Shown here: positions 10,372 to 64,000 of the stretch, piece by piece
How the letters are laid out: the number at the start of each line of letters is the position of its first letter
Position numbering within the stretch: position 1 is the first letter of the stretch
Source: a virus
Length of the DNA stretch: 64,000 nt
Virus record (IMG/VR): IMGVR_UViG_3300008886_000081
Direction: 5' to 3' (one strand)
The notes under the pieces: model-generated
Told to the model about the DNA's origin: nothing
Databases searched by the model: none
What the model saw: the letters and a program-made list of their open reading frames with translations, nothing else
Made by a program: the position numbers and the translations under genes

Positions 10372-11907
10372 ATGAAAACAGCATGGCAATACATCAGAAT
10401 CTCGGATGAAGATCAATCAAACTTTAGCTTGGATGGGCAGGATATGATTAACCGGAGATACACAGACAAGCATCAAATTACGATGACGCAAACATTTGTG
10501 GATGACGGTTATTCAGCCAAAGACTTTAATCGCCCAAACTGGAAGAAACTTGAAAAAGCGTTAGCCAGTAATAGAAATAGGCCGGACTACTTAATTATTT
10601 TTAAGTATGATCGCTTAATTCGTAACACACGGGAAGGTCTAAGCTTTATAGAAAGACTGGAAGAGAAATGGGGTGTAACTTTAGTTTCTTCTATGGAAGA
10701 TTACTTTGTCAACCCCCAAGACCCTTATTTTATTAAAATGAGGACAGAGCGATTGGTAGATGCAGAATTTGAGCGCAGACGCATTGCAGACAGAACCAAG
10801 ATGGGGATATGGTCAGCTCGCTCTACAGGAAGATTTTTAGGCCCCGCGCCAATAGGTTATTTAAATGCAAGGGATGAGAAAGACAAGCCGATCATCCTGA
10901 TTGATTATTCAAAAAAAGACTACATCATCCAGATTTTTAACGATTACATTGATGGGCTTACCTTTCCTATGATATTAAAACGTTTACGGGAAAAAAACAT
11001 CCATATTAAAGGCCATGATGGCCTTGACCGTATTTTAACCAACTATGTTTATGCCGGGCTTATAGAATCGCCAGCTTATAAAGACGAAAAATATAAGATT
11101 GTTCCAGGCATCCATGAGGCTATTATTTCCGAAGAAGTGTTTTATACCGCCTATTATAAATTGCAAGATAGTAAAAAGCCTCAAGGGCCGAAGATCATCG
11201 ACCCTAACTTACCTTTAAGAGCATTCATAAGATGTCGTCAATGTGGAATGCCTCATACAGGGGGCAGGTCGAAGGGGAGATCAGCTTATTACTTCTACTA
11301 CAATTGCAATAAGTGTAAAGGAGAATGCTATAATATTAATAAAGCTCATCAGGAATTATCTGACATTTTAAAACAGCTATCCATTAAGGAAACGGTAGTT
11401 GAAGCATTACAAAAAGAAGCGCTGGTTAATTTTGAAAAATTGAGTGCAGATAAAAAAACTGAGTTGGTTCGAGTTACTAAAGAATGTGAAGAGCTGCAAA
11501 AGAAGATTAATAGTTTAGAACAGAAATTCATTGAGGACAGAATCGATCATCTTACATACAGAAAGTGGTCTGAAGAATACAAAAAGGCAATGTTTGGCAA
11601 ACAACAGGAATTGAAGGCCTTAAAGGGCAATGATGAGGATGTGAAGAATCATTTCAAGCTACATCTTCCTTACCTGACCGACATTAATTGGTTGTACGAA
11701 AAAGCAGACATAGGCCACAAACACACGCTCCTAAAAAGCATATTTTTGGGCGGTTTGAGCAAGGAAAAAATAGGCTATCGAACCGCTTTTTTAAATCCTT
11801 TCTTTTCGCTGAATTGCCCTGACATCAAGGGGTTGGAGATAAGTAACAAAACAGAAAAATCGGCTGAATTAGCCGATTTTTCCTTAAGTACCCCAGACGG
11901 GACTTGA
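10372..11907 (+). CDS. large serine recombinase (resolvase + recombinase + Zn ribbon + coiled coil)
   Basis: YIRISDEDQS catalytic motif; DDGYSAK..RP; YDRLIRN; CRQC...CNKC zinc ribbon; coiled coil. Confidence 0.95.
   Translation: MKTAWQYIRISDEDQSNFSLDGQDMINRRYTDKHQITMTQTFVDDGYSAKDFNRPNWKKLEKALASNRNRPDYLIIFKYDRLIRNTREGLSFIERLEEKWGVTLVSSMEDYFVNPQDPYFIKMRTERLVDAEFERRRIADRTKMGIWSARSTGRFLGPAPIGYLNARDEKDKPIILIDYSKKDYIIQIFNDYIDGLTFPMILKRLREKNIHIKGHDGLDRILTNYVYAGLIESPAYKDEKYKIVPGIHEAIISEEVFYTAYYKLQDSKKPQGPKIIDPNLPLRAFIRCRQCGMPHTGGRSKGRSAYYFYYNCNKCKGECYNINKAHQELSDILKQLSIKETVVEALQKEALVNFEKLSADKKTELVRVTKECEELQKKINSLEQKFIEDRIDHLTYRKWSEEYKKAMFGKQQELKALKGNDEDVKNHFKLHLPYLTDINWLYEKADIGHKHTLLKSIFLGGLSKEKIGYRTAFLNPFFSLNCPDIKGLEISNKTEKSAELADFSLSTPDGT
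11854..11882. terminator. intrinsic terminator hairpin downstream of the tRNA fragment
   Basis: GAAAAATCGGCT-gaatt-AGCCGATTTTTC is a perfect 12-bp stem with A/T tracts on both sides. Confidence 0.75.
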
Positions 11908-11947
11908 ACCCGTACGTCCGCGAAGACACAGGATTTTAAGTCTTGTG
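11889..11947 (-). tRNA. 3' fragment of tRNA-Leu(UAA) = att junction, not an intact tRNA
   Basis: Minus strand reads caaga-CTTAAAA-tcctg, long variable arm, acggg-TTCAAGT-cccgt, ctggggt-A; D-arm and acceptor 5' strand absent; anticodon stem has a mismatch. Confidence 0.9.
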
Positions 11948-12023
11948 ATTTGAAGTTTTATAAAGTCCAATAAAAACCTATACAGTCTGTAAATCAGCAA
12001 TATAATTGAATTTCAGATAAAGT

Positions 12024-12078
12024 GGTTACACATAAGAAACTTCAAAAAACTGCAAAATGTGTAACCAAATGTGTAACC
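12024..12078. repeat. integrase arm-type sites: ATGTGTAACC x3
   Basis: AAATGTGTAACC in tandem at 12055-12066 and 12067-12078; inverted copy GGTTACACAT at 12024-12033; located between att and integrase. Confidence 0.7.
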
Positions 12079-12092
12079 TATTTCATACCTTT

Positions 12093-13487
12093 ATGGAAAA
12101 ATTAAAGGTTATGGCCAAGGCAAAAGCGAGATACATACTCTTCAAAAGTAAACCCCATAAGGATGGCACATTCCCTATCGTGCTTCGTATTACAAAAGAT
12201 CGAAACAGACGCTACATTTTCACAAAATATTCCGTGAGCGAGGATCAATGGAATACTACCAAGGACGAGGTTCAAAATCATCCTAACAGCCAGCGCCTAA
12301 ACAATATTCTGAAAAAGCAGCTCACCGAAGCCGACGATGTTATTCTCGATATGGATCGGGATAAGAAAAACTTAAATTCTGTTCAGCTCAAAGAAAAAAT
12401 AAAAGGAGCATCAGGTGGGTCGTTTTATGCATTGGGAGTGGAATACTTAAGCAGTAAAATTAAAACGAAGAAGTATAACCAATATATTTCAGACAAAAGT
12501 AAATTTAAAGCATTCCGCGCTTTTCTGGATGCGGAGAAATTAGGGCGCGATATTACGACAAAAGACGAGGAAGATAAAGTGGTCACTGTTCGGGACATTG
12601 ATATTAAGTCTGTGAATATCTCTGTGGTTAAAAAGTACAAGCTCTATCTGGAGACGGAAAAGTCTGCCGGTGAATCTACGGTCTATAACAATCTCAATGT
12701 GATCCGGATCGTTTGGAACAAAGCCATTGAAGAGGAGCTCGTGGATGCAAAAGATTATCCCTTTGGCAAGGGCAAAAAGAAATTACAGCTTAGGCCGGGC
12801 GAAAGCCAGAAGATCGGTCTGGACGAAAATGAGTTGGAGTTATTCGAGGATGTTGATATCAGCAAGAATAATCCAAAAATTATTAAGGCCCTCAAGAAAA
12901 ACGTTAAGTATGTAAAGGATCTGCCAACTCATATTCTTCAGCTCATAGATGCCAGGAATGCCTTTATGTTTTCGTTCTCATTTGCTGGTATGCGTTGTGA
13001 AGATGTTCTTACTGCCCGGTGGTCGGATTTTAAGAACGGACGTTACTACTACATCATTGGTAAAAATACCAAGCCTGTTAGCGTTCCTGTACCAGATGCA
13101 GTTCTCCCGATTCTGGACTATTATGCCTCCCGCAAAACAGAAGGTTGCGAGTTCATATTTCCATTTTTGGATAGCGCAGATTCATCAAATGCAAAGCAAT
13201 TTCATTCCAAGGTACGCACAGCTAATAAAAAGATAAATGAGGGCTTAGAGACTATCGCGCATGTCGCAGGTATAGACAAGGCTGTAAGCATGCACATCGC
13301 GCGGCATACCTTCGGCAACCTCTCGAAGGGAACCATTCCGGTAGAAATATTGCAAATGCTGTATCGCCATAGTGTTATTACGACCACAATCAACTACCAG
13401 AAAAATTTCATACATAAGCAGGTCGATGAAGGTTTATTGAAAATCGTTAATTTCAGGAATAGGCGACCGGAAGCAATTTCCGCTTAA
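12093..13487 (+). CDS. tyrosine integrase (Bacteroidota type, with arm-binding and SAM-like domains)
   Basis: KDGTFPIVLRIT arm domain; GMRCEDV (R), MHIARHTF (HxxR), TTINY (Y); start at 12093 or 12111 rather than 12057. Confidence 0.95.
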   Translation: MEKLKVMAKAKARYILFKSKPHKDGTFPIVLRITKDRNRRYIFTKYSVSEDQWNTTKDEVQNHPNSQRLNNILKKQLTEADDVILDMDRDKKNLNSVQLKEKIKGASGGSFYALGVEYLSSKIKTKKYNQYISDKSKFKAFRAFLDAEKLGRDITTKDEEDKVVTVRDIDIKSVNISVVKKYKLYLETEKSAGESTVYNNLNVIRIVWNKAIEEELVDAKDYPFGKGKKKLQLRPGESQKIGLDENELELFEDVDISKNNPKIIKALKKNVKYVKDLPTHILQLIDARNAFMFSFSFAGMRCEDVLTARWSDFKNGRYYYIIGKNTKPVSVPVPDAVLPILDYYASRKTEGCEFIFPFLDSADSSNAKQFHSKVRTANKKINEGLETIAHVAGIDKAVSMHIARHTFGNLSKGTIPVEILQMLYRHSVITTTINYQKNFIHKQVDEGLLKIVNFRNRRPEAISA

Positions 13488-13675: not shown

Positions 13676-14104
13676 ATGAAACGGCTTATTACCAGACAAA
13701 ACCTGATCCTGGACTACATCAGCTCCTGCGATGAGATTTTAGCGGAAGAGCCTGACAATATCAAGATCTTGCGTCTGAGGGGGCTGCTGTATAATGTTGC
13801 CGCAGAATATGACAAGGCGCTCCGGGATTTTGAACAAGTCCTGCGCCTGCTACCCACTGATGTAGAGACCTATTTTCTTAAGAGCGATTGCCATTATCAC
13901 AAAGGCGAGTTTGACCTGGCGAAGCGCGACTATATGCGGGCCCTGCGAAACCAGCACCATACAACAATCACGGAAGCCGATATCAATCGCGCAGTGGTCA
14001 TCGATGAGCGGGATCTAAAGGATATCCACACGGTCATCGAAGCTGAAAAGAAGGAGGCATTCGAGCGATTCAAAAAATTTATTTTGAACCCTGATTCAGA
14101 ATGA
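13676..14104 (+). CDS. TPR-repeat protein
   Basis: RGLLYNVAAEYDKALRDFEQVLRLLP..YFLKSDCHYHKGEFDLAKRDY. Confidence 0.85.
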   Translation: MKRLITRQNLILDYISSCDEILAEEPDNIKILRLRGLLYNVAAEYDKALRDFEQVLRLLPTDVETYFLKSDCHYHKGEFDLAKRDYMRALRNQHHTTITEADINRAVVIDERDLKDIHTVIEAEKKEAFERFKKFILNPDSE

Positions 14105-14492
14105 GCGCCTCAGCGACATAAGGTTCCAGCCAGTGCAGCGCACAGGCCCTACAGCCAAATACCGCGGTCGGCATAGCAGGTTTATCCAGACTCACCCAGG
14201 CCGTCCCGATCAGCTCCAGCAGCTTATTATCTCCGAAGATGACGCCCGCCGTCAGGAACTCGCAGGCTTCTTTCCCTGACAGGTATTGACGTGCTTCGTT
14301 GTCCATAGATAGAAAGTCTGTGGCATCGGCGAACATCGCCCAATAGACATTTCCGGTGAATTTCTTTCTGTCCGCAACCATATCACGCGCGACATTGATG
14401 TCTATGACCAGGTCAGGAGCATATCTGCCGAAGAGGACGCCGTTCTCTGTCCAAATGGTCGAGTGGTAAAATTCAGTTTTATTATGGATCAT
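14079..14492 (-). CDS. STAS/SpoIIAA-like small Bacteroidota protein
   Basis: ENGVLFGRY...ARDMVADR...DATDFLSMDNEARQYL...KPAMPTAVF pattern. Confidence 0.65.
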   Translation of the reverse strand: MIHNKTEFYHSTIWTENGVLFGRYAPDLVIDINVARDMVADRKKFTGNVYWAMFADATDFLSMDNEARQYLSGKEACEFLTAGVIFGDNKLLELIGTAWVSLDKPAMPTAVFGCRACALHWLEPYVAEALILNQGSK

Positions 14493-14922: not shown

Positions 14923-15435
14923 TCAGGCTGCATAGATAAGTTTCTGAGGGTCTATTTTGGCCCCGGAAGGGTCGGTCATGGTCAAATGCAAGTGCGGCGC
15001 GGTGCTTTTGCCGGTGTTGCCGGATAGCCCAATGACGTCACCACGTTTTACGGTATCTCCTTTTTTAACCAACTGTTTGGAAAGATGGGCATAGCCGGTG
15101 AAGTAACCATTCGTGTGGCGAATCACGATCTGGTTGCCACCGTCCCCTCCGGAGTTTACCAGGGACACGACACCGTCCATCGGGCTTTTGATAGGCGTCC
15201 CGATAGGCACCGACAGGTCGATACCGTTATGGAAGGCATTCTGTTTGCCGGTTTTAGGATCTGTCCTGTAGCCAAATTTGCTCGTGATCTTGGCACTCAC
15301 CGGTTGCAGCCAGGATTTTGCTTTACCCACGACTTCTCCGATGGATTTTCGTTTTTTGTATGCGATTAGTCCTATCGCAAAAAGGCCGGCTGCAATGCCG
15401 ACGCTCCAGTATATATGTCGCCGGGTCATCTTCAC
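14923..15435 (-). CDS. M23 endopeptidase with N-terminal TM anchor
   Basis: ITSKFGYR..P...FHNGIDL (HxxxD), TGYAHL, GKSTAPHLH (HxH); hydrophobic residues ~8-25. Confidence 0.95.
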   Translation of the reverse strand: MKMTRRHIYWSVGIAAGLFAIGLIAYKKRKSIGEVVGKAKSWLQPVSAKITSKFGYRTDPKTGKQNAFHNGIDLSVPIGTPIKSPMDGVVSLVNSGGDGGNQIVIRHTNGYFTGYAHLSKQLVKKGDTVKRGDVIGLSGNTGKSTAPHLHLTMTDPSGAKIDPQKLIYAA

Positions 15436-16127
15436 GCGTTGAGCAATACGGGTTTGTGTTTTTTCCGATAATACCGGATGGTAAAAAAGATTCCGACGCC
15501 CAGGGCTACGACCGATAAGGCGATGATGACGCCGGTTGGATGCTGTTTCACGATGGCTTCGGGTTGTGATAGTATGCCGGCGTACATGGACACGATTTTT
15601 GCCATGCGGTTCATGTAGCCCTTTTCATAGGTCAAACCCTTAAAGAAGTTTTTTCGGATGGCGGATAACGTTTCAAAGAACTTCCCGGAGGGAAGGCCAT
15701 TGATCTTTTGTACTTCCTCTGCGGAGAGGGTAAAGGATTTATATTCTTTGACGGTTCCGCTTCCCATCAGGCGGTTGATGGCCTGCCTGGTGTGCAGGGG
15801 TCCGTAGCTGCCTGATCCGTACACACTGTCAAACACCAGGTGCGCGACTGCCTGGCTACTGATTTTGTCACCTTGTACCTGGTCCCAGAATTTTGTTTTG
15901 GCAATTTTCTGCGCGAGCTCAGGTGTGAGGTTCTTAATCTCTTCGACCGAGGGACAACGCTTGAAATAGTCGCCGTAAGCAATGGCGGAGATCCCGAATT
16001 TAGTCCCGATGAGTTTGCTCCCCAGCTTTCCTTTGGCCGGGCAGTAGTTTGCCGAATCATTGGCAAGCTGCTGGTAGCCTCCTTCAAAGCCTTTGGTTCC
16101 TTTCCATATCGGGATAAAATCAGCCAT
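15432..16127 (-). CDS. glycoside hydrolase family 108-like lysozyme with C-terminal TM anchor
   Basis: FEGGY...ND...GTKFGIS...FWD motifs; C-terminal GVIIALSVVALGVGIFFTIRYYRKK; ATG 16127 preferred over track start 16178. Confidence 0.85.
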   Translation of the reverse strand: MADFIPIWKGTKGFEGGYQQLANDSANYCPAKGKLGSKLIGTKFGISAIAYGDYFKRCPSVEEIKNLTPELAQKIAKTKFWDQVQGDKISSQAVAHLVFDSVYGSGSYGPLHTRQAINRLMGSGTVKEYKSFTLSAEEVQKINGLPSGKFFETLSAIRKNFFKGLTYEKGYMNRMAKIVSMYAGILSQPEAIVKQHPTGVIIALSVVALGVGIFFTIRYYRKKHKPVLLNA

Positions 16128-16260
16128 GTTCTTTGTTGCAATTGCAAGTCTTTTCTTCTTTCGGGCCGAAGCGGTCAATCAGCAACACGATGGTATGCGC
16201 CGTCACCGCCAAAAGAAACACGGTGTACAGTACTTTCTCTCCTCTGCTTTGCTCATTCAT
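16120..16260 (-). CDS. 46-aa single-TM protein (below ORF-track cutoff)
   Basis: MNEQSRGEKVLYTVFLLAVTAHTIVLLIDRFGPKEEKTCNCNKEHG*; overlaps both neighbours by 8 bp and fills the operon gap. Confidence 0.65.
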   Translation of the reverse strand: MNEQSRGEKVLYTVFLLAVTAHTIVLLIDRFGPKEEKTCNCNKEHG

Positions 16261-16609
16261 GATCCTGGCTCCTGGACAACTCACGGATCTTGGTGCGGAG
16301 CTGCTGGTTCTCTTTTTCCAGGCGCTCGACTTTGGCTTCCAGATCGGTAATGCTTTGGTGCTGCTGATCGATCTGGCTTTTCAGCGCTTTGTTTTCTTCG
16401 GCGACGGTTTCCAGTTCCTTCACGCGTTTCTCCAGGGTCTGCGACCATTGAATCCAGTTCTCGGAGATTTGTTTTTCGGCCTGCGCATTCAGGTTGCGGA
16501 GCTCTGCGTTCTGGCGCTGCCGGTTCGTTCTGTGCTGGATGATGATTTCAATGAGCTTCCAAAAGCCGGTAGCTCCGAAAAAAATCGTTATGAGTTTGAG
16601 GTAGTCCAT
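16253..16609 (-). CDS. N-terminal TM + coiled-coil protein (holin-like candidate)
   Basis: LITIFFGATGFWKLIEIII followed by a long heptad coiled coil. Confidence 0.6.
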   Translation of the reverse strand: MDYLKLITIFFGATGFWKLIEIIIQHRTNRQRQNAELRNLNAQAEKQISENWIQWSQTLEKRVKELETVAEENKALKSQIDQQHQSITDLEAKVERLEKENQQLRTKIRELSRSQDHE

Positions 16610-16616
16610 GTGTTAG

Positions 16617-18120: not shown

Positions 18121-18282
18121 TTACTGACTCTTTTCACGGTGAGCAGCTAGTTTTTTCAACCGGTATTCGATGAACCACAGGGCGATGGTCATTGAAGCGA
18201 TTGAGCCGACAATAAGCATGGTGCATTTCGTGAGCACCTCGTGTAGTTTGGCGGCTTCCAGTGTTATGAATCTCTCGTTCAT
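18121..18282 (-). CDS. 53-aa single-TM protein (below ORF-track cutoff)
   Basis: MNERFITLEAAKLHEVLTKCTMLIVGSIASMTIALWFIEYRLKKLAAHREKSQ*. Confidence 0.7.
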   Translation of the reverse strand: MNERFITLEAAKLHEVLTKCTMLIVGSIASMTIALWFIEYRLKKLAAHREKSQ

Positions 18283-18323
18283 GGTGGTTGGTTTTTATAG
18301 AGTGTCTTGAGTGCGATGATTGT

Positions 18324-18671: not shown

Positions 18672-18895
18672 GGCGTTGGTAATAGTCGGTTAATGATTCG
18701 GTGCGTGAACATACTGGCCGCCGTTCCCAGAACGGCAGCGGCTATGACGGTCACAACGATTTTGACGAGGGTTTCATTGGTCAGGGTGATCTTGACGTCC
18801 GTACGTAGTCCTTCGTCTCCGAAGGTGTTATCCAGGTATTTTTTCAGCAGCCCGGTCTTCTGCTCTTTTTTTTCAGGGGTGTTAGGGGCACTCAT
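18668..18895 (-). CDS. small C-anchored membrane protein
   Basis: KIVVTVIAAAVLGTAASMF TM; ATGA overlaps with neighbours. Confidence 0.75.
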   Translation of the reverse strand: MSAPNTPEKKEQKTGLLKKYLDNTFGDEGLRTDVKITLTNETLVKIVVTVIAAAVLGTAASMFTHRIINRLLPTP

Positions 18896-46011: not shown

Positions 46012-46022
46012 ATCTGTGTCAT

Positions 46023-53480: not shown

Positions 53481-53504
53481 TTTTAACCCTATTCTCATTT
53501 TCAC

Positions 53505-53903: not shown

Positions 53904-53921
53904 TTCATTAAACCATAGTTT

Positions 53922-56900: not shown

Positions 56901-59900
56901 TCAAAAGACGGAAGCCCCACGCAACAACTTGTTTCCTATGGATGGCCTGGGCAAAGCCCGGAACGCACCGAACAAACCGATTATACCTATCAGCTGGTAA
57001 ACGGTGTATATAAGCCCTTGCAAACCAAAACGACCTTTGTACAGGGAAGCAATGCTCCTTATATACGTGAGGCAAATTACACCTTTGATGCATCTGGAAG
57101 ATTGTCCCAGGTAGTTAACGACCCAACATTAGGCAATCAATCGCTCGTCACGGTTTATAGCCAGTTTACACCTTTTGGCATCCCGACAAAAATCAATGTG
57201 TCTTCCGGCGACATCCTGCCGCGCGAATCGCAGACCTTGTATGATCCTACCGGGCGCTTCGTGATTAAAACCATTAATCCAAAAGGCGACATCGAGGAGT
57301 TTACCTACGATCCTGCCTTTGGAAACGTCCTGCAGAGCAAGAATATTTCTGGTCTGATTACAAAATATACCTACGACGGATTAGGACGCTTAATCAAAAC
57401 AAAACTCCCTGATAACAGAACCAATAGCATCCGCTACCAATACACCGGTTCGCAGAATAATCCGAACAGGGCCCTGTTTTCCAAAACTGTCCTGAATGAA
57501 GGTCAACCGGCTTTGACGGTTGAATACAGCCATTGGGGACAGCAGGTCCGGACCATCTCGGAAAATTTGAATGGTCTTGTGGTATATTCCGAAAAAACCT
57601 ATGACAATACCGGCCTTATCGAATCCTCGGAGCCACATTATGCTTTAGGACAGAACCAAGCAGGCTACCTCGTCACTAAATTCACTAGGGATGGGTATCA
57701 ACGGTCACTGAAGGCCGAAACATTCTATAAGACGATCCCGACCTCCTATACCTCGAAAGGCATCTTTACGGATTTTAGCTACAATCCGCTAAGTACGCCT
57801 TTCAGTTATATGAAGGGGTGGGTAAAATCGGTCGATCAGAACGGAAAGACCGTGGTGCAGGAAAACAATGCGGGCGGCCAGGCAACTAAAGTTACTAATC
57901 AGGTCAACACGGGTTCCGGACCGCTGGCCGCTACCGGCGATCTGGAAACTTCCGATTACACCTACCATAGCAACGGCCAGCCGCTGAGCGTCACCCTGAG
58001 CTACAGTAACATTAGCGATGTCATTAGCCACACATTCGATTACGATGCATTGGGCAATCAAACCCAGCTCGTTGATCCGAGCGTGGGCACCATCAACTAT
58101 GCCTACAATACCCTGGGCGAGATGTTGAATTACAGTGATGCCAACGGGAATTTTACCTATACCTATGACGTGCTGGGACGTGTCACTCAGAAAGTAAGCC
58201 CGGTGTCGGGTACTACCACCTATCAGTATGTAACAGCTAATGCGGGTAAAAACCAGCTCTCAAAAATAACAGGTCCTAATGTCACGACCGAGCTGAGCTA
58301 TGATTATCTCGGCAGGCCAATGAGTTACCAGGAAACACTACCTGCCAGCTCAAAAGTGTTTCTATCGTCATTTGAGTATGACGCTAACAGCCGGATGAAC
58401 ACCTACACTTATCCAAGTGGCTATAAAACAAAATACATCTATTCGCCAAATGGCGCAGGCTTAAAAGCCATTGCCGATGACAATAATACTGTCATCTGGG
58501 AGAATGCCGGCCAGGATGCTACGGGCCATATCACTGAATACGCCTATGGAAATGGCATTAGCACCACGGTTGACTTTGGTGAGTTGCATAACCTGAAAAG
58601 CATAGAGCACGGATCGCTTCATAAGCAGGAATATGTGTTTAACCCGCTAAACGGGAACCTGGCCTCACGCACGTTTCACAACTATGTTAGCAATCAAAGC
58701 AACAAGGAGGCCTTTAATTTTGATGCGCTGAAGCGCCTGAGTAAATCGGAACAGTTCAACCCGGCGAATAATAACGCAATCCCTAACACGGCAAACAATA
58801 TCACGATTGATATTAAAGGTAATATTCTTCACAAGGATGATGCGGGAGATTATCTCTATAATAATCCGGCCTTGCCTTATGGCCTTACACAGATCAATAA
58901 CCCAACAGCCAACATCCCGGCCAACGCGCTCGGTGTTACGATCAACGACTTCCGGAAGATCAGCCAGCTGACCGAAAGCACCACCGGCAAGGAAATGAAC
59001 TTTACCTATGGCAACAATGATGAACGCGTGAAAGTGGATTACCTGGTAAACACAGTAAATCAATACAGCCGCTATTATCAAAGTAACTACGAACGTGAGG
59101 AAAGCAGCAGTAACACGAAAGAGTGGACTTACATTTACGCTCCTACGGGCCTCGCGGCGGTGTTTTATAAATCTAACAGTACCTCTGCGGGACAACTGCT
59201 GTATGCGCTCACCGATCACCTGGGCAGTCCGGTGATGCTGACAAACGCCAGCAGGCAGATCCAGGAGGAATACAGCTTTGATGCCTGGGGCCGGAGGCGC
59301 AATCCTGCCGATTGGAGTTATAGCGGATTTTCGACGCCTACAATTTTGCACCGCGGTTATACTACACATGAGCATATCGACGAGTTCAATCTCATCAATA
59401 TGAACGGCCGCGTCTATGATCCTGTGCTTGGGCGCTTTACCCAACCGGATAACCAGGTACAGGACCCCGGTTTCCTGCAAACCTTTAACAAATATGCCTA
59501 TGTGTTCAATAACCCACTGAGCAATATCGATCCGAGCGGATGGGCTGGCGGCAGCGCCTTTGGCACTGAATCCGACGGAGCCGTATTAGGTGGCTTATCG
59601 GCAGCTTACAGTAATTATGGCGACTACTACGCGGCGCAAAATGGCTCAGGCGTGCCCTGGGCATATCCTACCGGTGGCGGCGGTGGTGGTGGCGGGAATA
59701 GCTGGTACTCCGCAGGCATGGCTACCGACATCAAATATAACGCGATGATGGATGGAATTTCAGGGCAATGGAGTTACGATAGCTATTCGAATAGTTGGGG
59801 AGTTTTGCAGCAACAAACCTACGGACAGCGTTGGGTACATAACTCCAACGTCAACCCGAATGCAGACGGATCGCTAGAAGCTGAGGCATACGAGGTAGCC

Positions 59901-60380
59901 TACTTTAATGGCAAAGAAGATCACAACCTGAAAAATGAAGTTGACATAGATATATATCAGCAGGGATCAATGCGCCTTAGCTCATTATCTTTCCAATTTC
60001 AAAAGACAGCGTCAAACTGGCAGGTAGCTGCCGTCTCGAACTTAAAAGTAACAGCAAGATTGCCGCATCTAGTAGGTACAGAGGGAAAAGACATTGTGTA
60101 CACTTTTAACCTTGAGGTCGGAATGCCTATTGTTTTAAGAGACGGAACATATATTTCGCCTCAGTATGCAGCGCAAGCCGCAGCAAATGCGGCAAATTCA
60201 GCAGCGGCATTTTTTCAAACTACCAAAGTAACTGCGTATATTAATACCCAGGCTATATTTGCGCAGCAATTTGCCTTCGCTATGCAAGGTTACTTGAATT
60301 TTGAAATTAGTGGGGCACGAGTGAGTAAAACCATAATGACACCTGGTGTAAAGCCAACAGAAGCCATTTGGACCTGGTAA
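53922..60380 (+). CDS. SpvB/TcaC-like + FG-GAP + RHS/YD polymorphic toxin (2152 aa)
   Basis: Signal peptide; GMQPQLSISY..GGANGIMGLGW; DxNxDG repeats; YD repeats; TDHLGS; GRFTQPD...NPLSNIDPSG-W core end; ~280-aa variable tip. Confidence 0.93.
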   Translation: MSIFRSPALILALLLIHVNSGLLRAQNPANLLLPNQQVVPSDETKRATQTIKLQPGFRYGAGSSGSRLTLQISAYPAYVEPGYSEPPTNCTFPAPSSGLVGETEGNFAVTPTGNAVYTIPIKCSPGTAGMQPQLSISYMSGGANGIMGLGWNLGGVSSITRTSKNPYFDTKNEGVKLVQADAFALNGNRMILKSGTSGNAGSTYGLELENFADITAQGQQGLGPQSFIVVDKNGTTVEFGTNADARLTSLGGTTVLAWMVSKVTDEFGNYMLYHYTQLNGELVLSSIEYTGNGSMAPYNELVFDYMPKTEKQTFYEGGEEFRKTQLLKSITAKAGGNLVKKYILQYEFGFTTLLSKLTEVNKDGSELAPTQFCWKDPYDNSVVQGTQNMALYSSANAAKYNSIKNTIAADLNSDGFSDMVVIDNSNNYEVLINPFVQNYQTSNSNGFTSALTSSNPSSNTDSLLSSHVYDSDFDNNQEVYAYFNDVSDPKKYYLQKINTIGVSNTNQMPTVQITQVGSPVTLNNRIDAMAIPSRFYYDKNDYTADGDLDELIVDGENVKLSSASGNATYTLNPRTMLARPVDFDGDGVLEVAVFEDQVTSLSVKILKYNASVFSLYFSGSIPFTGNSSAKLLRLIGVGDYNGDGKADIVFMNPAKSSLSVCFSNGISLTAPKAINEFTALNAALDYNISSPDINGNGINDIVITEYNTTNSLADYTSYYSIGDLFVKGPSGSGKFRDNVYQVMKYYYLSGGTKFDISKVEKTRAFEYSIDFNGDGTFDFVSLDGVNTKLVSNNLLSGNPKFIGNIFTGMGKNIEITYCNTGTRFDRTRTSVYQDSYTAYTGALRTFKPGNFVVSHVQMDASYPNQLVFDKQYVYQGAIFHKYGKGFIGFEQVTEIDEVTSIGSQTSFVLSTNNFQPSSTLSTSAKFTTASGGNSGQGAITFWNYNYSAMISEKKVAFQHSPLGAKRFFIAPQVENSRQFLNSTAMQVDYSYDLSKDGSPTQQLVSYGWPGQSPERTEQTDYTYQLVNGVYKPLQTKTTFVQGSNAPYIREANYTFDASGRLSQVVNDPTLGNQSLVTVYSQFTPFGIPTKINVSSGDILPRESQTLYDPTGRFVIKTINPKGDIEEFTYDPAFGNVLQSKNISGLITKYTYDGLGRLIKTKLPDNRTNSIRYQYTGSQNNPNRALFSKTVLNEGQPALTVEYSHWGQQVRTISENLNGLVVYSEKTYDNTGLIESSEPHYALGQNQAGYLVTKFTRDGYQRSLKAETFYKTIPTSYTSKGIFTDFSYNPLSTPFSYMKGWVKSVDQNGKTVVQENNAGGQATKVTNQVNTGSGPLAATGDLETSDYTYHSNGQPLSVTLSYSNISDVISHTFDYDALGNQTQLVDPSVGTINYAYNTLGEMLNYSDANGNFTYTYDVLGRVTQKVSPVSGTTTYQYVTANAGKNQLSKITGPNVTTELSYDYLGRPMSYQETLPASSKVFLSSFEYDANSRMNTYTYPSGYKTKYIYSPNGAGLKAIADDNNTVIWENAGQDATGHITEYAYGNGISTTVDFGELHNLKSIEHGSLHKQEYVFNPLNGNLASRTFHNYVSNQSNKEAFNFDALKRLSKSEQFNPANNNAIPNTANNITIDIKGNILHKDDAGDYLYNNPALPYGLTQINNPTANIPANALGVTINDFRKISQLTESTTGKEMNFTYGNNDERVKVDYLVNTVNQYSRYYQSNYEREESSSNTKEWTYIYAPTGLAAVFYKSNSTSAGQLLYALTDHLGSPVMLTNASRQIQEEYSFDAWGRRRNPADWSYSGFSTPTILHRGYTTHEHIDEFNLINMNGRVYDPVLGRFTQPDNQVQDPGFLQTFNKYAYVFNNPLSNIDPSGWAGGSAFGTESDGAVLGGLSAAYSNYGDYYAAQNGSGVPWAYPTGGGGGGGGNSWYSAGMATDIKYNAMMDGISGQWSYDSYSNSWGVLQQQTYGQRWVHNSNVNPNADGSLEAEAYEVAYFNGKEDHNLKNEVDIDIYQQGSMRLSSLSFQFQKTASNWQVAAVSNLKVTARLPHLVGTEGKDIVYTFNLEVGMPIVLRDGTYISPQYAAQAAANAANSAAAFFQTTKVTAYINTQAIFAQQFAFAMQGYLNFEISGARVSKTIMTPGVKPTEAIWTW

Positions 60381-60392
60381 AAAAATAAGAAA

Positions 60393-60953
60393 ATGAAAGA
60401 GGAAATATTAAAAATAATTTATACGTACTATCCAAGGAATATCATTAACTACACTGATGATTACTCTGAAAGGGTAGAACATATACGACTACGTTCGTCT
60501 ATTAAGATTGCGGAGGAAAATGTCCGCAAATGGAGTGTCTTTTTGGACAAGCTCAGTGAAGAAACACATCATAAATTCGAAATACAAGATTGGACTCAGC
60601 TATTCAACCACGATGCTTGTTATTGTTGCCGCTTGTCATACTCTTCTTCAAATAACATTTACGTTGATCTTTCTATTAACGTAAGCATAATATCAAACTA
60701 CTTTTCTATTTATTGTTCCACAACAGAAAAGATCAATGGTTGCTTTTCTATTCCGGAAATAGATTTTAGTTTGAAAAACATAGACGCTGCCCTTTTGGTT
60801 CAAATCAGAAAAACGATTTATTCAGCCTTCCCACAGTATGATGAATTTCCGGTTTCTTTAGTTCGTGAGATTGTCCCGGAAATTTGGATCGGAAATAAGA
60901 TGGTTGGTGAAGCAACTTTTTTCGACTGCATTTTTACGACCCATATTTGGTGA
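60393..60953 (+). CDS. putative cognate immunity protein
   Basis: AT-rich 186-aa ORF 12 bp after the RHS stop; assignment rests on position only. Confidence 0.65.
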   Translation: MKEEILKIIYTYYPRNIINYTDDYSERVEHIRLRSSIKIAEENVRKWSVFLDKLSEETHHKFEIQDWTQLFNHDACYCCRLSYSSSNNIYVDLSINVSIISNYFSIYCSTTEKINGCFSIPEIDFSLKNIDAALLVQIRKTIYSAFPQYDEFPVSLVREIVPEIWIGNKMVGEATFFDCIFTTHIW

Positions 60954-61001: not shown

Positions 61002-62171
61002 TTATATAAAAATACTTTTCAGCCGCTGGATGGCTTTCGGCGTATAGCTGTAGGTCTCCCAGACCTGTTTGTGCGCATAAACGCCAATGTCTTTCCGAAG
61101 CTGGATGTCATCGACCAGCTGAATGATCCTGTTGAGCCACTCCTCATCGGTGGTGGCTACAAAACCGCTCTCGCCTTCGCTGATGAGCTTATCGAAAGGG
61201 GCCATCTTCGTGGCGATGACGGGAACCATCAGGGAGGAGAAATCTATGTAGCGTTGCAGGGCCTTGCCTGTAGCATTATAAGCATTGTTCACAAAGGGCA
61301 GCAGGCCAATATCCAGCGTCAAATTATTCAGCCGGGTATGGTAGTCAAAAAAGAAAGAGGGCTTCTCATAAATCACGGGAAGCCCTTTGAGGCAACTGTT
61401 GTGTGCGATGCTGCGCTCGTTCCATCCATAGATGACCAGCTCCACCCTCTCACCGTGGCTTCCTAGTAAGGTGCGAAGTGGCTGCTCTATGGTCTTCAGA
61501 TCCTGCGCCTGGCTGGCGTCCAGGATCAGACCGATCCGGACACGCTCGCTGGTGTTACGCTGAATCTGCGGCATTTCCTCAAAGGTGAAGGGAGAGAGCA
61601 GGCTGCCGTAACGCTCCAGGTACAATTCCAGTTCCTCCGTTTTCTGTTCAGCCAGGTGACCGTAATAATTGAGGATGCTGCCATTCGGCGCTGTCAGGAT
61701 ATCCACCTTAAAAAAGTTCTCCAGGAACACATCCTTCAGCTGCTGGCGCAGTTTTTTGTAGTCCGGGTGGTAATCAGGCAGCTCATGGTAGTTTTGGTCC
61801 ACATCCATGATAAATTCAATCTTGGAATTGATCTCCCGCATGTTCCGGATAATGTAGCTGACATCGGTGAACAGCACCGGCATCACGACGTAATCCGCCC
61901 ACTGCACCAGGCGGTAATCGATGGGATTATCATAGTCGTCAAAGAGCTTGGTAAAATCCCACTTGTGAATGTCGCTGACAATGGCCGAGTGGGATTCGGT
62001 CCGGTTCAGCTCCAGGGCCGGCAGGATCAATCGGTAGTAACTGGTTTCATTGGCGCAGGCGGATAGGAAAAGCACGTGGATCTTCCCATCGTCGAAATGC
62101 AGTCCGGGGTACTTATCGCCGAAGTCTTTTGCTGTATTGAGGTGTGCGTAGAGTGTTTTAACGGTTTTCAT
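61002..62171 (-). CDS. GT-B fold glycosyltransferase (GT4-like, phage type)
   Basis: SYYRLILP; LDIGLLPF..N.YN..K...YID...VPVIAT...PF...I..G..GF. Confidence 0.8.
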   Translation of the reverse strand: MKTVKTLYAHLNTAKDFGDKYPGLHFDDGKIHVLFLSACANETSYYRLILPALELNRTESHSAIVSDIHKWDFTKLFDDYDNPIDYRLVQWADYVVMPVLFTDVSYIIRNMREINSKIEFIMDVDQNYHELPDYHPDYKKLRQQLKDVFLENFFKVDILTAPNGSILNYYGHLAEQKTEELELYLERYGSLLSPFTFEEMPQIQRNTSERVRIGLILDASQAQDLKTIEQPLRTLLGSHGERVELVIYGWNERSIAHNSCLKGLPVIYEKPSFFFDYHTRLNNLTLDIGLLPFVNNAYNATGKALQRYIDFSSLMVPVIATKMAPFDKLISEGESGFVATTDEEWLNRIIQLVDDIQLRKDIGVYAHKQVWETYSYTPKAIQRLKSIFI

Positions 62172-62177
62172 AGTTGG

Positions 62178-62450
62178 TTACGATTTTAGTCCTGTTTTAA
62201 TGCCTTGTTCATAGCGTTCAATGACTGCCCCATTCCGGGTGCCGTAGCTGTTTTCGTAGATCTCAACCACCAGGGCCAGATGTCCCCATCTGGCAATGCA
62301 CTTGCGAAGGCGCTGAAGGCCCAGCTCGGCATCCCTGTTGTGGGAGAATTTGCTCTTCCAGTCGATTGAATAGATTGTCCGGGTATTGCCGTCGGCAAAC
62401 CATACGATCAGTTTATGGTATGAATCCATACCGAGTTTCCAGGTGCTCAT
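62178..62450 (-). CDS. hypothetical protein
   Basis: 90-aa ORF coupled to neighbours. Confidence 0.7.
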   Translation of the reverse strand: MSTWKLGMDSYHKLIVWFADGNTRTIYSIDWKSKFSHNRDAELGLQRLRKCIARWGHLALVVEIYENSYGTRNGAVIERYEQGIKTGLKS

Positions 62451-62854
62451 GTGCTGAAGTAAAAATGAGTAATTAAGGTTAGTGTCGGGATTTTCTTTCG
62501 GTACATCGGGCCTTCATAGAGGTGAGCGCCCAGCCTGGCCTTTACTTCGCATACGACGACCACCAGGTCATCCGGCTTGATGTTTTCCTCCTTGGCCAGT
62601 GTATGCAGGTAATCAGTCACGGCCCGGCTCCGGCCTTCCTCATAATCGACACCGAAAAACTCGAGGATGGACTGAATGGTCAATGGCTCTATATGGCGGT
62701 TGTTTTCATAGAGATGCACGGTCAGTAGGCCGGATGCTGGCCGGAAGACCAGGCGCGCTTTTTCGGGCGCTATGTTCGCCTCCGTGGATTTGTGTACCAG
62801 GTAGCGCTGGATGCGCTTGTTCACCTGGTGCTCTGGGTTAAGATGTTCTAACAT
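62447..62854 (-). CDS. hypothetical protein with an internal two-fold repeat
   Basis: Start MLEHL at 62854; two units YL...E.NI.P....LV......L..HLYE. Confidence 0.7.
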   Translation of the reverse strand: MLEHLNPEHQVNKRIQRYLVHKSTEANIAPEKARLVFRPASGLLTVHLYENNRHIEPLTIQSILEFFGVDYEEGRSRAVTDYLHTLAKEENIKPDDLVVVVCEVKARLGAHLYEGPMYRKKIPTLTLITHFYFST

Positions 62855-62867
62855 GATCTTTGTTTTT

Positions 62868-63119
62868 TTATAGGTAGGTTCCAAATTGTGCATAGGCCCT
62901 GAGCTCTTCGATGATGATCGAAAGGCTTTTGTGTTCATAGTCGCGTCCATCCAGAACTTCGGGATCGGGATAGACATCTCCGATATTTTCTGCCAGGTAG
63001 TCAGGGTATTCGCAGGCGATGATCTTCTCTTTGCTCATCAACTTTTCGGCAGCTTCATAAATCGTGAGGTTGTAATCGTTGTGATCGACTACCGTGGTTG
63101 TTCCGTCTGTTGCTATCAT
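62868..63119 (-). CDS. hypothetical acidic protein
   Basis: 83-aa ORF that fills the operon gap. Confidence 0.65.
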   Translation of the reverse strand: MIATDGTTTVVDHNDYNLTIYEAAEKLMSKEKIIACEYPDYLAENIGDVYPDPEVLDGRDYEHKSLSIIIEELRAYAQFGTYL

Positions 63120-63132
63120 GTTTTTTTAGGAT

Positions 63133-63999
63133 TTAGCTGGGATGGGTGATTTGATGGAAGGTGGCCTGGCTGAGCACGGCAGCATGGAAGCGTTGCAGGA
63201 GCGCCGGGTCCTTCAGTTTTCCAAGCGTGTTCTCACATTGTCGAAAAAGTTGCAGCCTGGGTTGTTGATGGCGACCTGGCTTTTTCTCGTTGTTGACGAA
63301 AGTCCGAATCAACCTGGAAAGCGTTAACTCCCGCTTTACTTCTGCTTTCCTGGCCTGATCGGCAACATACCATTTTTTTGTTCCGGCAAAGCCATGCGGG
63401 TTGCGTGTATCGAAGTAGAGATAAGGCAGCGGAACATAACGCTTACCGGGATCCTTCAGCAGGTACTTATCCACCAGGGCGATGCGCTGAATGTACTGAT
63501 CGTGCGCCTTGCCGAGGTGTTCTGTTGATACCTGGTTGTAAAGGCCGTAAATGAGCTTTTTGGCGATGCTCACCTGGTGGACGGTCAAATCGGTGTGCTT
63601 GTACAGCAGGTTGCGGGCCATCATCCAGAAAAGGCCGGAATACAGCGTTAGGGAATTGTCGCGGGCGGCGTCGGGCGGAACATTCCTGTCGCCTGAGTTT
63701 TCCGCCCGCGAAACAATTTCCCCTGCTTCTTCCATATTTTTTTTAGGGACAATTTCCCCTGCGTTTCCAGCAGGGTTTCCAGTGATGTCACCGGAGCATT
63801 CACCCGTGAGCGATAGCGAACACCTTTCAGACTTATCAACGGCTATTAGTATATTATTTTTTATGTTACTTGTGTTACAGGAATATGTATGTGGACAAAT
63901 TGTCTTTCTATGTTTTGAATCCGTTGCAGGGAGCGTGATTCGGGGCGCCGTGGCCAGGCGCTCGCTTAGCTTCTGTTTTGTGTTTTCAACCGTCAGTTT
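63133..63999 (-). CDS. 5'-truncated gene, probable replication-initiator-like protein
   Basis: The frame of track ORF 63133-63735 is open to the window end (KLTVENTKQKLSERL...NNILIAVDK...); low-complexity linker then YVPLPYLYFD..NPHGFAGTKKW; function is inference. Confidence 0.5.
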   Translation of the reverse strand, partial: KLTVENTKQKLSERLATAPRITLPATDSKHRKTICPHTYSCNTSNIKNNILIAVDKSERCSLSLTGECSGDITGNPAGNAGEIVPKKNMEEAGEIVSRAENSGDRNVPPDAARDNSLTLYSGLFWMMARNLLYKHTDLTVHQVSIAKKLIYGLYNQVSTEHLGKAHDQYIQRIALVDKYLLKDPGKRYVPLPYLYFDTRNPHGFAGTKKWYVADQARKAEVKRELTLSRLIRTFVNNEKKPGRHQQPRLQLFRQCENTLGKLKDPALLQRFHAAVLSQATFHQITHPS

Positions 64000-64000
64000 C

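What the first reader, a model, noticed from the sequence alone, without database searches (positions are those of the whole stretch)
11889..64000. Integrated >52 kb provirus-like element that looks like a tailless, membrane-containing virus of an unfamiliar group
Seen: an att fragment and integrase; a tightly coupled minus-strand operon (14923-27649) with many ATGA overlaps; a second operon with a ~300-aa FtsK-HerA ATPase; no recognisable terminase, portal, tape-measure, sheath, VirB4/TraG or relaxase gene. Known: PRD1-, PM2- and sphaerolipovirus-type viruses combine jelly-roll capsids, an A32/P9-type ATPase, many small membrane proteins and virion-bound lytic enzymes. Inference: this is a provirus of such a virus in Bacteroidota, unusually large and carrying DarB-like and cargo modules. 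I cannot assign it to a named family.
Basis: partly seen in the sequence, partly recalled or inferred. Interest (0 to 1): 0.92.

Follow-up and report, generated by a model that had tools for sequence, protein, structure and literature searches.

The report
Tailless virus-like provirus in Bacteroidota
This is an integrated mobile element of about 55 kb from a large, apparently undescribed Bacteroidota family that has the gene set expected of a tailless, membrane-containing virus, though no virus particle has yet been shown.

Summary

The backbone is conserved in at least 80 Bacteroidota genomes. Cargo sits at two hot spots. The methylase/ParB-SNF2 pair is backbone, not cargo. Salisaeta phage SSIP-1 (44 kb, tailless, membrane-containing) carries a comparable giant protein as a virion component. 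It is the closest known analogue, but its core genes show no detectable homology to this element's.

The family is absent from isolated phages, plasmids and IMG/VR. The virus reading is the best explanation (about 0.5), not proven.

This scan has met the same family before on other genomes.

The parts
11889..11947 (-). 3' 59 nt of tRNA-Leu(TAA). This is the left attachment site; the intact tRNA is expected beyond 64000.
   Evidence: Sequence read; no whole tRNA found; match to the intact tRNA-Leu(TAA) of a related Polaribacter element.
12057..13487 (+). Tyrosine integrase, 476 aa.
   Evidence: Pfam Arm-DNA-bind_5 4e-19, Phage_integrase 3e-13, SAM_5 3e-9.
13676..14492 (.). TPR protein (+) and DUF7793 protein (-). 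Both are accessory genes at the element's end.
   Evidence: Pfam; homologues lie at the same end of the closest relative, G011:C61.
14923..16178 (-). Membrane-anchored M23 peptidase (170 aa) and GH108 muramidase (248 aa).
   Evidence: Pfam 8e-31 and 6e-12; hydrophobic segments at residues 8-26 and 216-234.
16253..18071 (-). Membrane coiled-coil protein (118 aa) and fibre-like protein (484 aa) with two copies of a phage tail-fibre motif.
   Evidence: PHROG tail-fibre families, best E 8e-18, two stretches. The fibre gene is duplicated in the closest relative.
18121..20069 (-). Six small proteins (53-182 aa), mostly single-pass membrane proteins.
   Evidence: ORF list and hydrophobicity scan; conserved in up to 59 related loci.
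20066..20605 (-). N-acetylmuramoyl-L-alanine amidase-like protein, 179 aa.
   Evidence: Pfam Amidase_2 8e-6; conserved in 57 loci.
20617..22533 (-). 638-aa paralogue of the 295-aa protein, with a beta-propeller inserted into the jelly-roll core. Candidate spike or second shell protein.
   Evidence: Pfam Lactonase/YNCE propeller; hhalign probability 88%, E 3e-6 against the 295-aa family; colinear BLASTP matches before and after the propeller. By Foldseek, the 295-aa model matches the C-terminus of AFDB entry A9DWB0 (500 aa, the length of the Kordia propeller protein), E 5e-7. That this entry is the Kordia protein is my recollection of the accession; the tool masks the organism.
22530..23330 (-). 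266-aa protein with an invariant HExxH motif; probably a zinc peptidase.
   Evidence: H188, E189 and H192 are invariant in 20 homologues; conserved in 71 loci.
23336..26415 (-). One small beta-rich protein (75 aa) and five charged, low-complexity proteins with C-terminal membrane anchors.
   Evidence: conservation figures.
26514..27401 (-). 295-aa candidate major shell protein: acidic D/E/Y-rich N-terminus, highly conserved beta-sandwich core (residues about 86-221) and Arg/Lys-rich C-terminal tail.
27461..27649 (-). 62-aa membrane protein, first gene of the operon.
27962..34684 (.). Cargo hot spot 1, a defence-like island: PIN-TPR-GreABC protein (1254 aa), a 563-aa protein and an AbiC-like protein (379 aa). 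GC 41.5% against 52% in the backbone.
   Evidence: Pfam; absent from all related loci; GC.
34709..36059 (-). A 109-aa protein and two paralogous proteins (128 and 171 aa) downstream of the ATPase.
   Evidence: Both paralogues hit the same genes in related loci.
35956..36870 (-). 304-aa FtsK-HerA-type ATPase, the candidate genome-packaging motor.
36888..40272 (-). Conserved genes upstream of the ATPase: an acidic helical 293-aa protein, then proteins of 153, 218, 98 (two membrane segments), 202 (weak ParB-like match) and 113 aa.
   Evidence: Synteny across loci.
40272..45731 (-). 1819-aa protein with an N-terminal ParB_N-like region and an SNF2 helicase.
   Evidence: Pfam SNF2-rel_dom and Helicase_C. 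Residues 52-293 match SSIP-1 gp43 residues 1822-2064, the ParB_N region, at E 4e-11.
45712..50831 (-). 129-aa protein and a 1602-aa polyvalent N6-adenine methylase (DUF6908, DUF1249, Eco57I and N6_Mtase domains).
   Evidence: Pfam; homologues at the same backbone position in Kordia, Polaribacter and G010.
51930..60953 (+). Cargo hot spot 2: a 516-aa protein, a 132-aa protein with a T9SS sorting domain, a 2152-aa SpvB/TcdB/RHS-repeat protein and a 186-aa protein.
   Evidence: Pfam; not conserved in related loci; the same position is variable between Kordia copies.
61002..62977 (-). Conserved 389-aa protein (weak glycosyltransferase-like match) and proteins of 90 and 176 aa.
   Evidence: homologues in Kordia, Polaribacter and G010.
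63133..64000 (-). C-terminal 288 aa of a roughly 440-aa winged-helix replication-initiator-like protein. The gene runs off the window.
   Evidence: Full-length homologues of 441 and 422 aa. Weak matches to PHROG 'replication initiation O-like' (E 4e-4) and Pfam HTH_24 (E 5e-3); ESM Atlas leads to RepA_N, HTH_36 and replication proteins.

Best explanation
The element is a provirus of a temperate, tailless dsDNA virus that most likely has an internal or associated lipid membrane. It belongs to a large, undescribed lineage of Bacteroidota.

Shown:
- It sits in a tRNA gene next to a tyrosine integrase.
- Its backbone has three modules: a replication-initiator-like module, the block from the methylase/ParB-SNF2 genes to the ATPase, and the membrane/jelly-roll/lysis operon.
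- This backbone is conserved in order and orientation in at least 80 genomes.
- Cargo is swapped at two fixed positions.

Inferred life cycle:
1. The integrase excises the element at tRNA-Leu.
2. The winged-helix initiator replicates the circle.
3. The 295-aa jelly-roll protein, together with its propeller-bearing paralogue and the fibre protein, builds a shell or vertices around a vesicle studded with the many single-pass membrane proteins.
4. The 304-aa B204/A32-like ATPase pumps the roughly 55-kb dsDNA in.
5. The giant methylase and ParB-SNF2 proteins are packaged with the DNA, as in SSIP-1 gp43 and P1 DarB, to protect it on entry.
6. The membrane-anchored M23, GH108, amidase and HExxH enzymes open the cell wall at entry, exit or both.
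For: - Near-identical folds (TM 0.8-0.9 over about 265 residues) occur in ESM Atlas clusters whose members with a taxon record are 85-98% labelled viral.
- The 295-aa protein has an 8-9-strand beta-sandwich core whose top matches are mostly jelly-roll capsid and penton proteins.
- It is the most conserved protein of the operon and has a paralogue with a propeller insertion.
- The fibre protein carries phage tail-fibre motifs.
- There are four or more cell-wall hydrolases, at least 13 single-pass membrane proteins, and tight translational coupling.
- A complete relative in Kordia (53.2 kb between 43-bp tRNA-His repeats) has no T4SS, relaxase, terminase, portal or tail gene. It also has no unassigned backbone ORF longer than 500 aa that could hide one.
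- Precedent: SSIP-1 has a 43.8-kb circular genome, a tailless T=49 particle with a membrane and two capsid protein types. It encodes a tyrosine integrase, a 320-aa structural ATPase and a 2319-aa structural methylase-ParB protein, whose ParB region matches this element's SNF2 protein.
Against: - No particle, free circle or virome read was shown.
- The 295-aa family has no match in 50,697 phage records, in PLSDB plasmids or in IMG/VR. The ATPase has none in phages or IMG/VR either.
- Sphaerolipovirus capsid proteins are not among the top 50 matches.
- No core protein shows sequence homology to SSIP-1.
- The margin of B204 over HerA and VirB4 is only about 1.5 Z units.
- An Arg-rich tail on a shell protein is unusual for a virus whose DNA lies inside a membrane.
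Confidence: 0.5

Rival explanations
1. It is a non-viral integrative element with a new, capsid-less route of DNA transfer. Transfer would be either contact-dependent or by membrane vesicles. The small FtsK-HerA ATPase would pump dsDNA through a channel built from the membrane proteins, the wall hydrolases would clear the path, and the polyvalent methylase and helicase would travel with the DNA as in conjugation.
For: - Polyvalent methylase, ParB and SNF2 proteins are typical of conjugative elements as well as of phages (established knowledge).
- The family is absent from phage and viral-contig collections.
- The element has a plasmid-like initiator.
- The capsid assignment is weak.
Against: - No relaxase, coupling protein or VirB4-size ATPase occurs in the window or in complete relatives.
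- The element carries phage tail-fibre motifs and a jelly-roll pair.
- The ATPase, including its C-terminal domain, matches clusters labelled viral.
- No such system is known in diderm bacteria.
Confidence: 0.2
2. It is a virus, but not an icosahedral one. It would be an enveloped pleomorphic or filamentous dsDNA virus released by budding, like the IME1 elements of Dehalococcoides, plasmaviruses or archaeal pleolipoviruses. The 295-aa protein would then be a nucleoprotein or matrix protein rather than a shell protein.
For: - The element combines a weak Zot/pI-like ATPase signal, many small membrane proteins and no tailed-phage hallmarks. That combination is the one reported for IME1, which dominated metaviromes and came with filaments (bioRxiv 10.64898/2026.09.15.751708).
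- The basic C-terminal tail of the 295-aa protein suits DNA binding.
Against: - Several wall hydrolases suggest lysis or wall penetration rather than budding alone.
- The jelly-roll pair, with a propeller-decorated paralogue and a fibre protein, fits shell and vertex parts.
Confidence: 0.15
3. It is a defective or domesticated relic, or a particle-forming element that no longer spreads on its own, for example a gene-transfer-agent-like or bacteriocin-like particle.
For: No free form was observed. The element carries large cargo islands.
Against: - All backbone genes are intact here and in relatives.
- Kordia carries three copies. Two are 97-98% identical in the backbone but carry different cargo, which points to recent activity.
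- Relatives sit at different tRNA genes (Leu, His, Met, and apparently Val) with exchangeable integrases.
Confidence: 0.08
4. It is a tailed prophage whose terminase, portal and capsid genes are too divergent to recognise.
For: The ATPase gives a weak PHROG match to a terminase large subunit (E 1.8e-5, P-loop region only). The fibre protein matches tail-fibre PHROGs.
Against: The complete Kordia element has no unassigned backbone ORF of portal, terminase or tape-measure size. The ATPase is a 304-aa single-domain FtsK-HerA protein without a nuclease domain.
Confidence: 0.02

Closest known systems
[quoted passage not shown]
   Same: - The host lineage was classified in Bacteroidetes (host taxonomy from my own knowledge).
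- The genome is 43.8 kb of circular dsDNA.
- It encodes a tyrosine integrase and an ATPase of about 320 aa that is annotated as structural.
- Its 2319-aa structural protein carries methylase and ParB_N domains. The ParB region matches this element's ParB-SNF2 protein at E 4e-11.
- It has a run of small structural genes, and two capsid protein types are reported.

   Different: - Profiles of the 295-aa, 638-aa, 266-aa and ATPase families find nothing in SSIP-1.
- The SSIP-1 ATPase is of the AAA_25/KaiC type by Pfam.
- SSIP-1 gp43 shows no SNF2 domain by Pfam.
- SSIP-1 was isolated as a free virus, whereas this element is an integrated provirus with cargo islands.
STIV/STIV2 B204 and the A32/P9-type packaging ATPases of Varidnaviria
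   Different: There is no sequence-level match. This protein has an extra helical C-terminal domain of about 60 residues. Pfam sees only weak Zot and DUF87 signals.
Sphaerolipoviridae / Helvetiavirae (P23-77, SH1, HHIV-2): two single-jelly-roll capsid proteins
   Same: Both have two paralogous jelly-roll-like proteins, one of them carrying an extra domain. Both also have an FtsK-HerA ATPase, many membrane proteins and a temperate lifestyle with an integrase in some members.
   Different: None of their capsid proteins appears among the 50 best structural matches. The two genes here are seven genes apart and not adjacent to the ATPase. The genome is two to three times larger. The orientation of the jelly roll in a shell is unknown.
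IME1 elements of Dehalococcoides (bioRxiv 10.64898/2026.09.15.751708)
   Same: Both are integrated elements with a pI/Zot-like ATPase signal, many small membrane proteins and no tailed-phage hallmarks. IME1 was argued to be a new virus lineage.
   Different: IME1 elements are 21-28 kb, restricted to Chloroflexota and proposed to be budding filaments. They are not reported to carry a jelly-roll pair or a polyvalent protein.
Phage P1 DarB and the polyvalent proteins of phages and conjugative elements
   Same: Both are giant methylase plus helicase proteins, thought to enter the recipient with the DNA and protect it from restriction (established knowledge).
   Different: Here the functions are split over two genes (1602 and 1819 aa) with a ParB_N-like region. 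Packaging into particles has not been tested.

Membership tests
Varidnaviria-type tailless membrane-containing viruses (PRD1, PM2, STIV, sphaerolipovirus kind) | Packaging ATPase of the FtsK-HerA superfamily, A32/P9/B204 type | tested here: met
Varidnaviria-type tailless membrane-containing viruses (PRD1, PM2, STIV, sphaerolipovirus kind) | Major capsid protein with a vertical jelly roll (one double or two single) | tested here: inconclusive
Varidnaviria-type tailless membrane-containing viruses (PRD1, PM2, STIV, sphaerolipovirus kind) | Virion with an internal lipid membrane | not testable with these tools
   Only indirect evidence: at least 13 of the 21 operon proteins have one membrane segment.
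Sphaerolipoviridae / Helvetiavirae | Two paralogous single-jelly-roll capsid proteins related to P23-77 VP16/VP17 or SH1 VP4/VP7 | tested here: not met
   A paralogous pair exists (hhalign probability 88%). However, no sphaerolipovirus capsid protein appears among the 50 best of 48,161 chains.
SSIP-1-like phages | Homologous structural proteins and ATPase | tested here: not met
   hmmsearch with profiles A1-A5 against all 57 SSIP-1 proteins gave nothing below E 0.2. Only the ParB_N region of gp43 matches, at E 4e-11.
Inoviridae (filamentous phages) | Zot/pI assembly ATPase with a membrane anchor, a genome under about 20 kb, and a rolling-circle replication protein | tested here: not met
Integrative conjugative elements (type IV secretion) | VirB4-type ATPase, coupling protein and relaxase | tested here: not met
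   None was found by Pfam in 44 window ORFs or in the complete Kordia relative.
Caudoviricetes (tailed phages) | Terminase large subunit, portal, HK97-fold capsid protein and tail genes | tested here: not met
   No Pfam or PHROG match apart from a P-loop-only terminase hit at E 1.8e-5. The Kordia element has no unassigned backbone ORF of suitable size.
tRNA-integrating genomic islands and proviruses | Integrase next to a tRNA gene, with a direct repeat of the tRNA 3' end at the far end | tested here: met
   The window has the tRNA-Leu 3' fragment and an integrase. In the Kordia relative both ends are seen: tRNA-His and a 43-bp repeat 53.2 kb away. The window's own second repeat lies outside it.

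The most novel reading that the evidence does not exclude
The element is not a virus at all. It would be the first example of a capsid-less DNA-transfer machine in diderm bacteria, either vesicle-borne or contact-dependent. The machine would be built from a virus-type FtsK-HerA ATPase, jelly-roll proteins, dozens of single-pass membrane proteins and wall hydrolases. It would deliver a 55-kb element together with its polyvalent protective proteins.
Probability: 0.15. Interest if true: 0.92.

Novelty: new variant of a known kind. Interest (0 to 1): 0.77.

Why it matters
If these elements make particles, they would be a new high-rank lineage of tailless, membrane-containing dsDNA viruses.

- They would be far more common than the single isolate SSIP-1 suggests. 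The capsid-candidate family has 275 cluster representatives at 50% identity.
- They occur in cultured marine genera such as Kordia, Aquimarina, Dokdonia and Formosa, sometimes in several copies per genome.
- Standard virus-detection pipelines appear to miss them, so they would be a blind spot in prophage counts for a major phylum.
- They carry defence systems and toxin cassettes at two fixed cargo sites, which makes them vehicles for such genes.
- Carriers are in culture, so the question can be tested directly by induction, microscopy and proteomics.

Tried and rejected
- **Own genome.** No whole genome is held for the window. An exact look-up of a window protein found nothing. The contig could therefore not be extended, and the right end was inferred from relatives.
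- **Sequencing runs.** None was listed for the operon, so no read-level test of excision was possible.
- **Free circular forms.** The Polaribacter contig has no terminal overlap. JGI and TARA contigs of 40-57 kb carrying the family were found, but their records are not held for end checks.
- **Complex prediction.** The 295-aa core was folded with the propeller paralogue (residues 165-638). The job gave no verdict (score 0.00). This is evidence neither for nor against binding.
- **ATPase against solved structures by sequence.** Neither the single protein nor the family profile gave a meaningful match.
- **Rfam.** It does not call the tRNA fragment. The fragment was identified by direct comparison with an intact tRNA.
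- **Terminator after the 295-aa gene.** The pattern scan found none on the minus strand here.
- **Left flank (1-11888).** I tested whether it is a relative of the same family. Only the serine recombinase has a counterpart.
- **Literature.** Searches for a published description of this family found none.
Full report
**1. Observation**

- Positions 11889-11947 (minus strand) read as the 3' 59 nt of a tRNA-Leu(TAA). The piece covers the acceptor 3' strand, T arm, variable arm and anticodon loop, and the sequence then diverges.
- ARAGORN finds no intact tRNA in the window, and Rfam does not call the fragment.
- The T-arm segment (21 of 21 bases) and the anticodon loop match an intact tRNA-Leu(TAA) found beside a related element.
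- A tyrosine integrase follows at 12057-13487.
- From 27649 down to 14923, 21 ORFs run on the minus strand. They have six ATGA and one GTGA 4-base overlaps, and most other gaps are under 75 bases. At least 13 products have one hydrophobic segment.
- Pfam and PHROG scans of 44 ORFs between 12057 and 64000 gave no terminase, portal, tape-measure, sheath, VirB4/TraG or relaxase.

**2. Anatomy of the structural-like operon**

In transcription order the operon encodes:

- a 62-aa membrane protein;
- the 295-aa protein (26514-27401);
- four charged proteins with C-terminal membrane anchors;
- a 75-aa beta-rich protein, followed by a fifth such tail-anchored protein;
- a 266-aa protein with an invariant HExxH motif;
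- a 638-aa beta-propeller protein;
- an amidase and six small, mostly membrane proteins;
- a 484-aa protein with two copies of a phage tail-fibre motif (PHROG E 8e-18);
- a membrane coiled-coil protein;
- a GH108 muramidase with a C-terminal anchor and an M23 peptidase with an N-terminal anchor.

**3. The rest of the element**

Upstream lie four blocks:

- a low-GC defence-like island at 27962-34684 (PIN-TPR-GreABC and AbiC-like proteins);
- a second minus-strand block running from the 1602-aa methylase and the 1819-aa ParB-SNF2 protein down to the 304-aa ATPase;
- an Rhs-type cassette on the plus strand at 51930-60953;
- a final minus-strand block at 61002 to beyond 64000. Its last gene is the C-terminal part of a winged-helix replication-initiator-like protein of about 440 aa. 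The support is weak: PHROG O-like E 4e-4, Pfam HTH_24 E 5e-3, and ESM Atlas leads to RepA_N and HTH_36.

GC content is 50-52% in the three backbone blocks. It is 41-47% in the two islands and 41% in the left flank.

**4. The element is a member of a large family**

- The 295-aa protein has more than 330 homologues, all labelled hypothetical.
- At least 80 loci in species genomes of Bacteroidota carry it. They include Kordia, Aquimarina, Dokdonia, Formosa, Nonlabens, Flavivirga, Polaribacter, Fulvivirga, Splendidivirga and Cyclobacteriaceae, and often hold several copies per genome.
- Gene order is conserved: SNF2 protein, then genes of 113, 202, 98, 218, 153 and 293 aa, then the ATPase, the 128/171-aa pair, a variable stretch, the 62-aa gene, the 295-aa gene and the rest of the operon.
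- A profile of the 181-residue core found 275 cluster representatives at E up to 1e-3 among 1.8 billion proteins.
- Three distant members (233-249 aa) lie on contigs of 20-45 kb. All three show the sequence of a roughly 300-aa protein, a small ORF, the core homologue and many small genes. Two of them also show a giant SNF2 protein upstream. Almost none of these genes has a Pfam match.

**5. Ends and size**

- Kordia algicida OT-1 has three copies. Copy A begins at tRNA-His, with its own tyrosine integrase beside it. It ends 53.2 kb away at a 43-bp direct repeat of the tRNA 3' end.
- This copy contains homologues of the window genes at 61002-63999, so the window's element should end only a few kilobases past 64000.
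- A 58,770-bp Polaribacter contig is almost exactly one element in the window's orientation. About 4 kb beyond the initiator-like gene it carries two small ORFs, a coiled-coil protein, a 220-aa ORF with no Pfam match, a large serine recombinase and an intact tRNA-Leu(TAA).
- Other relatives lie next to tRNA-Met and near a tRNA-Val.
- Precomputed Pfam annotation of the whole Kordia copy shows no T4SS, relaxase, terminase, portal or tail gene. No unassigned backbone ORF there exceeds 500 aa.
- The two other Kordia copies are 97-98% identical in the backbone. They differ at the same two positions where the window carries its islands. These are therefore cargo hot spots, and the copies are recent.

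**6. The ATPase**

- Its family has Walker A CGETGVGKT, Walker B LLVLEDLD and a conserved RHxGxD...HQS block.
- Neither the sequence nor a family profile finds a solved relative.
- Next come HerA (14.7), DndH (14.7) and VirB4 (14.5). Coupling proteins score 10.7-10.8, FtsK 9.7 and the Zot domain 9.4.
- In the ESM Atlas, the whole model including its C-terminal helical domain superposes at TM 0.8-0.9 on clusters of about 270-aa proteins. Members of these clusters with a taxon record are 85-98% labelled viral, and clusters carrying Pox_A32 follow.
- An earlier follow-up in this scan reached the same reading for a relative in another genome (e1-1362896). I reproduced it independently here.

**7. 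The capsid candidate**

- The 295-aa protein has an acidic D/E/Y-rich N-terminus and an Arg/Lys-rich C-terminal tail. Its core has 68 invariant positions out of 181.
- It is more conserved than its operon neighbours.
- The AF2 model has a confident core (pLDDT about 80) of eight to nine strands.
- Sphaerolipovirus capsid proteins are not in the list.
- The 638-aa protein is a paralogue. BLASTP aligns residues 90-117 with 177-208, before the propeller. hhalign aligns residues 124-186 with 525-586, after it (probability 88%, E 3e-6).
- Foldseek pairs the 295-aa model with the C-terminus of AFDB entry A9DWB0, a 500-aa protein of the same length as the Kordia propeller protein (E 5e-7). That the entry is the Kordia protein is my recollection of the accession, because the tool masks the organism.
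- A jelly-roll pair with an extra domain on one member recalls the small and large capsid proteins of sphaerolipoviruses. That is a resemblance, not a demonstrated relationship.

**8. Closest known system**

Salisaeta phage SSIP-1 is described as a tailless, membrane-containing T=49 phage with a 44-kb circular genome and two capsid protein types. Its sequence has almost no database relatives (PMC6356626, PMC6260650, PMC4958249).

Its record encodes:

- a tyrosine integrase;
- a 320-aa ATPase annotated as structural (gp40);
- a 2319-aa structural protein, gp43, with methylase and ParB_N domains.

Residues 52-293 of the window's SNF2 protein match the ParB region of gp43 at E 4e-11.

A giant methylase-ParB protein carried in the virion thus has a precedent in this virus type. 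A genome of 44-55 kb is not out of range either. Profiles of the 295-aa, 638-aa, 266-aa and ATPase families find nothing in SSIP-1. The element is therefore an analogue of SSIP-1, not a detectable relative.

**9. What argues against a virus**

- The 295-aa family has no match in 50,697 phage records, PLSDB plasmids or IMG/VR.
- The ATPase has none in phages or IMG/VR.
- No sequencing run was listed, and no free circular contig could be checked.
- One distant member comes from a Tara 0.1-0.22-um fraction. This is only a lead.
- The IME1 preprint shows that elements with a Zot-like ATPase signal and many small membrane proteins can turn out to be budding viruses. That keeps a non-icosahedral virus in play.

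**10. Verdict**

The best-supported reading is a provirus of a tailless, membrane-associated dsDNA virus of a new lineage, at a confidence of about 0.5.

- Shown: integration, backbone conservation, cargo hot spots, the ATPase fold, the jelly-roll pair, and the absence of rival machineries.
- Inferred: particle formation, packaging by the ATPase, co-packaging of the polyvalent proteins, and the roles of the hydrolases.

The main rivals are a non-viral transfer apparatus (0.2) and a budding, non-icosahedral virus (0.15). I found no published description of the family.

Noticed in passing
window 10372-11947: A 511-aa large serine recombinase ends inside the tRNA-Leu fragment. In the related Polaribacter element, a serine recombinase (24% identical) sits in the same position against the intact tRNA-Leu(TAA), as that element's own integrase. 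The window's copy may therefore be the end of an earlier element inserted in tandem at the same tRNA. Nothing else in 1-10371 resembles the family.
   Followed up: partly
window 27962-34684: A low-GC island between the ATPase block and the structural operon holds a 1254-aa PIN-TPR-GreABC protein, a 563-aa protein with a long overlapping 349-aa ORF, and a 379-aa AbiC-like protein. It looks like defence cargo at a hot spot. Kordia carries HEPN genes at the same place.
   Followed up: partly
window 51930-60953: A plus-strand cassette holds a 516-aa protein, a 132-aa protein that is little more than a T9SS C-terminal sorting domain, a 2152-aa SpvB/TcdB-mid/FG-GAP/RHS-repeat protein and a 186-aa protein. 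It sits at the second cargo hot spot.
   Followed up: no
G001 (Kordia algicida OT-1) C1 1497547-1565057 and 1576033-1627327; loci L088-L094: Two element copies only about 11 kb apart are 97-98% identical in the backbone but carry different cargo at the two hot spots. A third copy at tRNA-His is about 75% identical.
   Followed up: partly
window 22530-23330: The 266-aa protein, second most conserved in the operon, has an invariant HExxH motif and no Pfam or PHROG match. It is possibly a new zinc peptidase family.
   Followed up: partly
window 12057-64000 against 1-11888: The backbone has 50-52% GC and a strong strand-specific AT skew. The flank and the cargo islands have 41-47% GC. The element's composition is far from that of its host.
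   Followed up: no
L108 (SSIP-1) 26863-33822: The 2319-aa virion protein gp43 of SSIP-1 carries N6-methylase and ParB_N domains. It therefore looks like a packaged polyvalent anti-restriction protein. I did not see this stated in the reviews I read.
   Followed up: partly
window 36888-37769: The acidic helical 293-aa protein just upstream of the ATPase has its nearest ESM Atlas clusters labelled 68-95% viral. It also gives a weak hit (E 0.006) to SSIP-1 gp41, the structural gene next to that phage's ATPase. It could be a scaffold or packaging partner.
   Followed up: no
G011:C61 14401-17732 (loci L103-L104): The closest relative has two tandem fibre genes (531 and 568 aa) where the window has one. 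This fits diversification of a receptor-binding protein.
   Followed up: no
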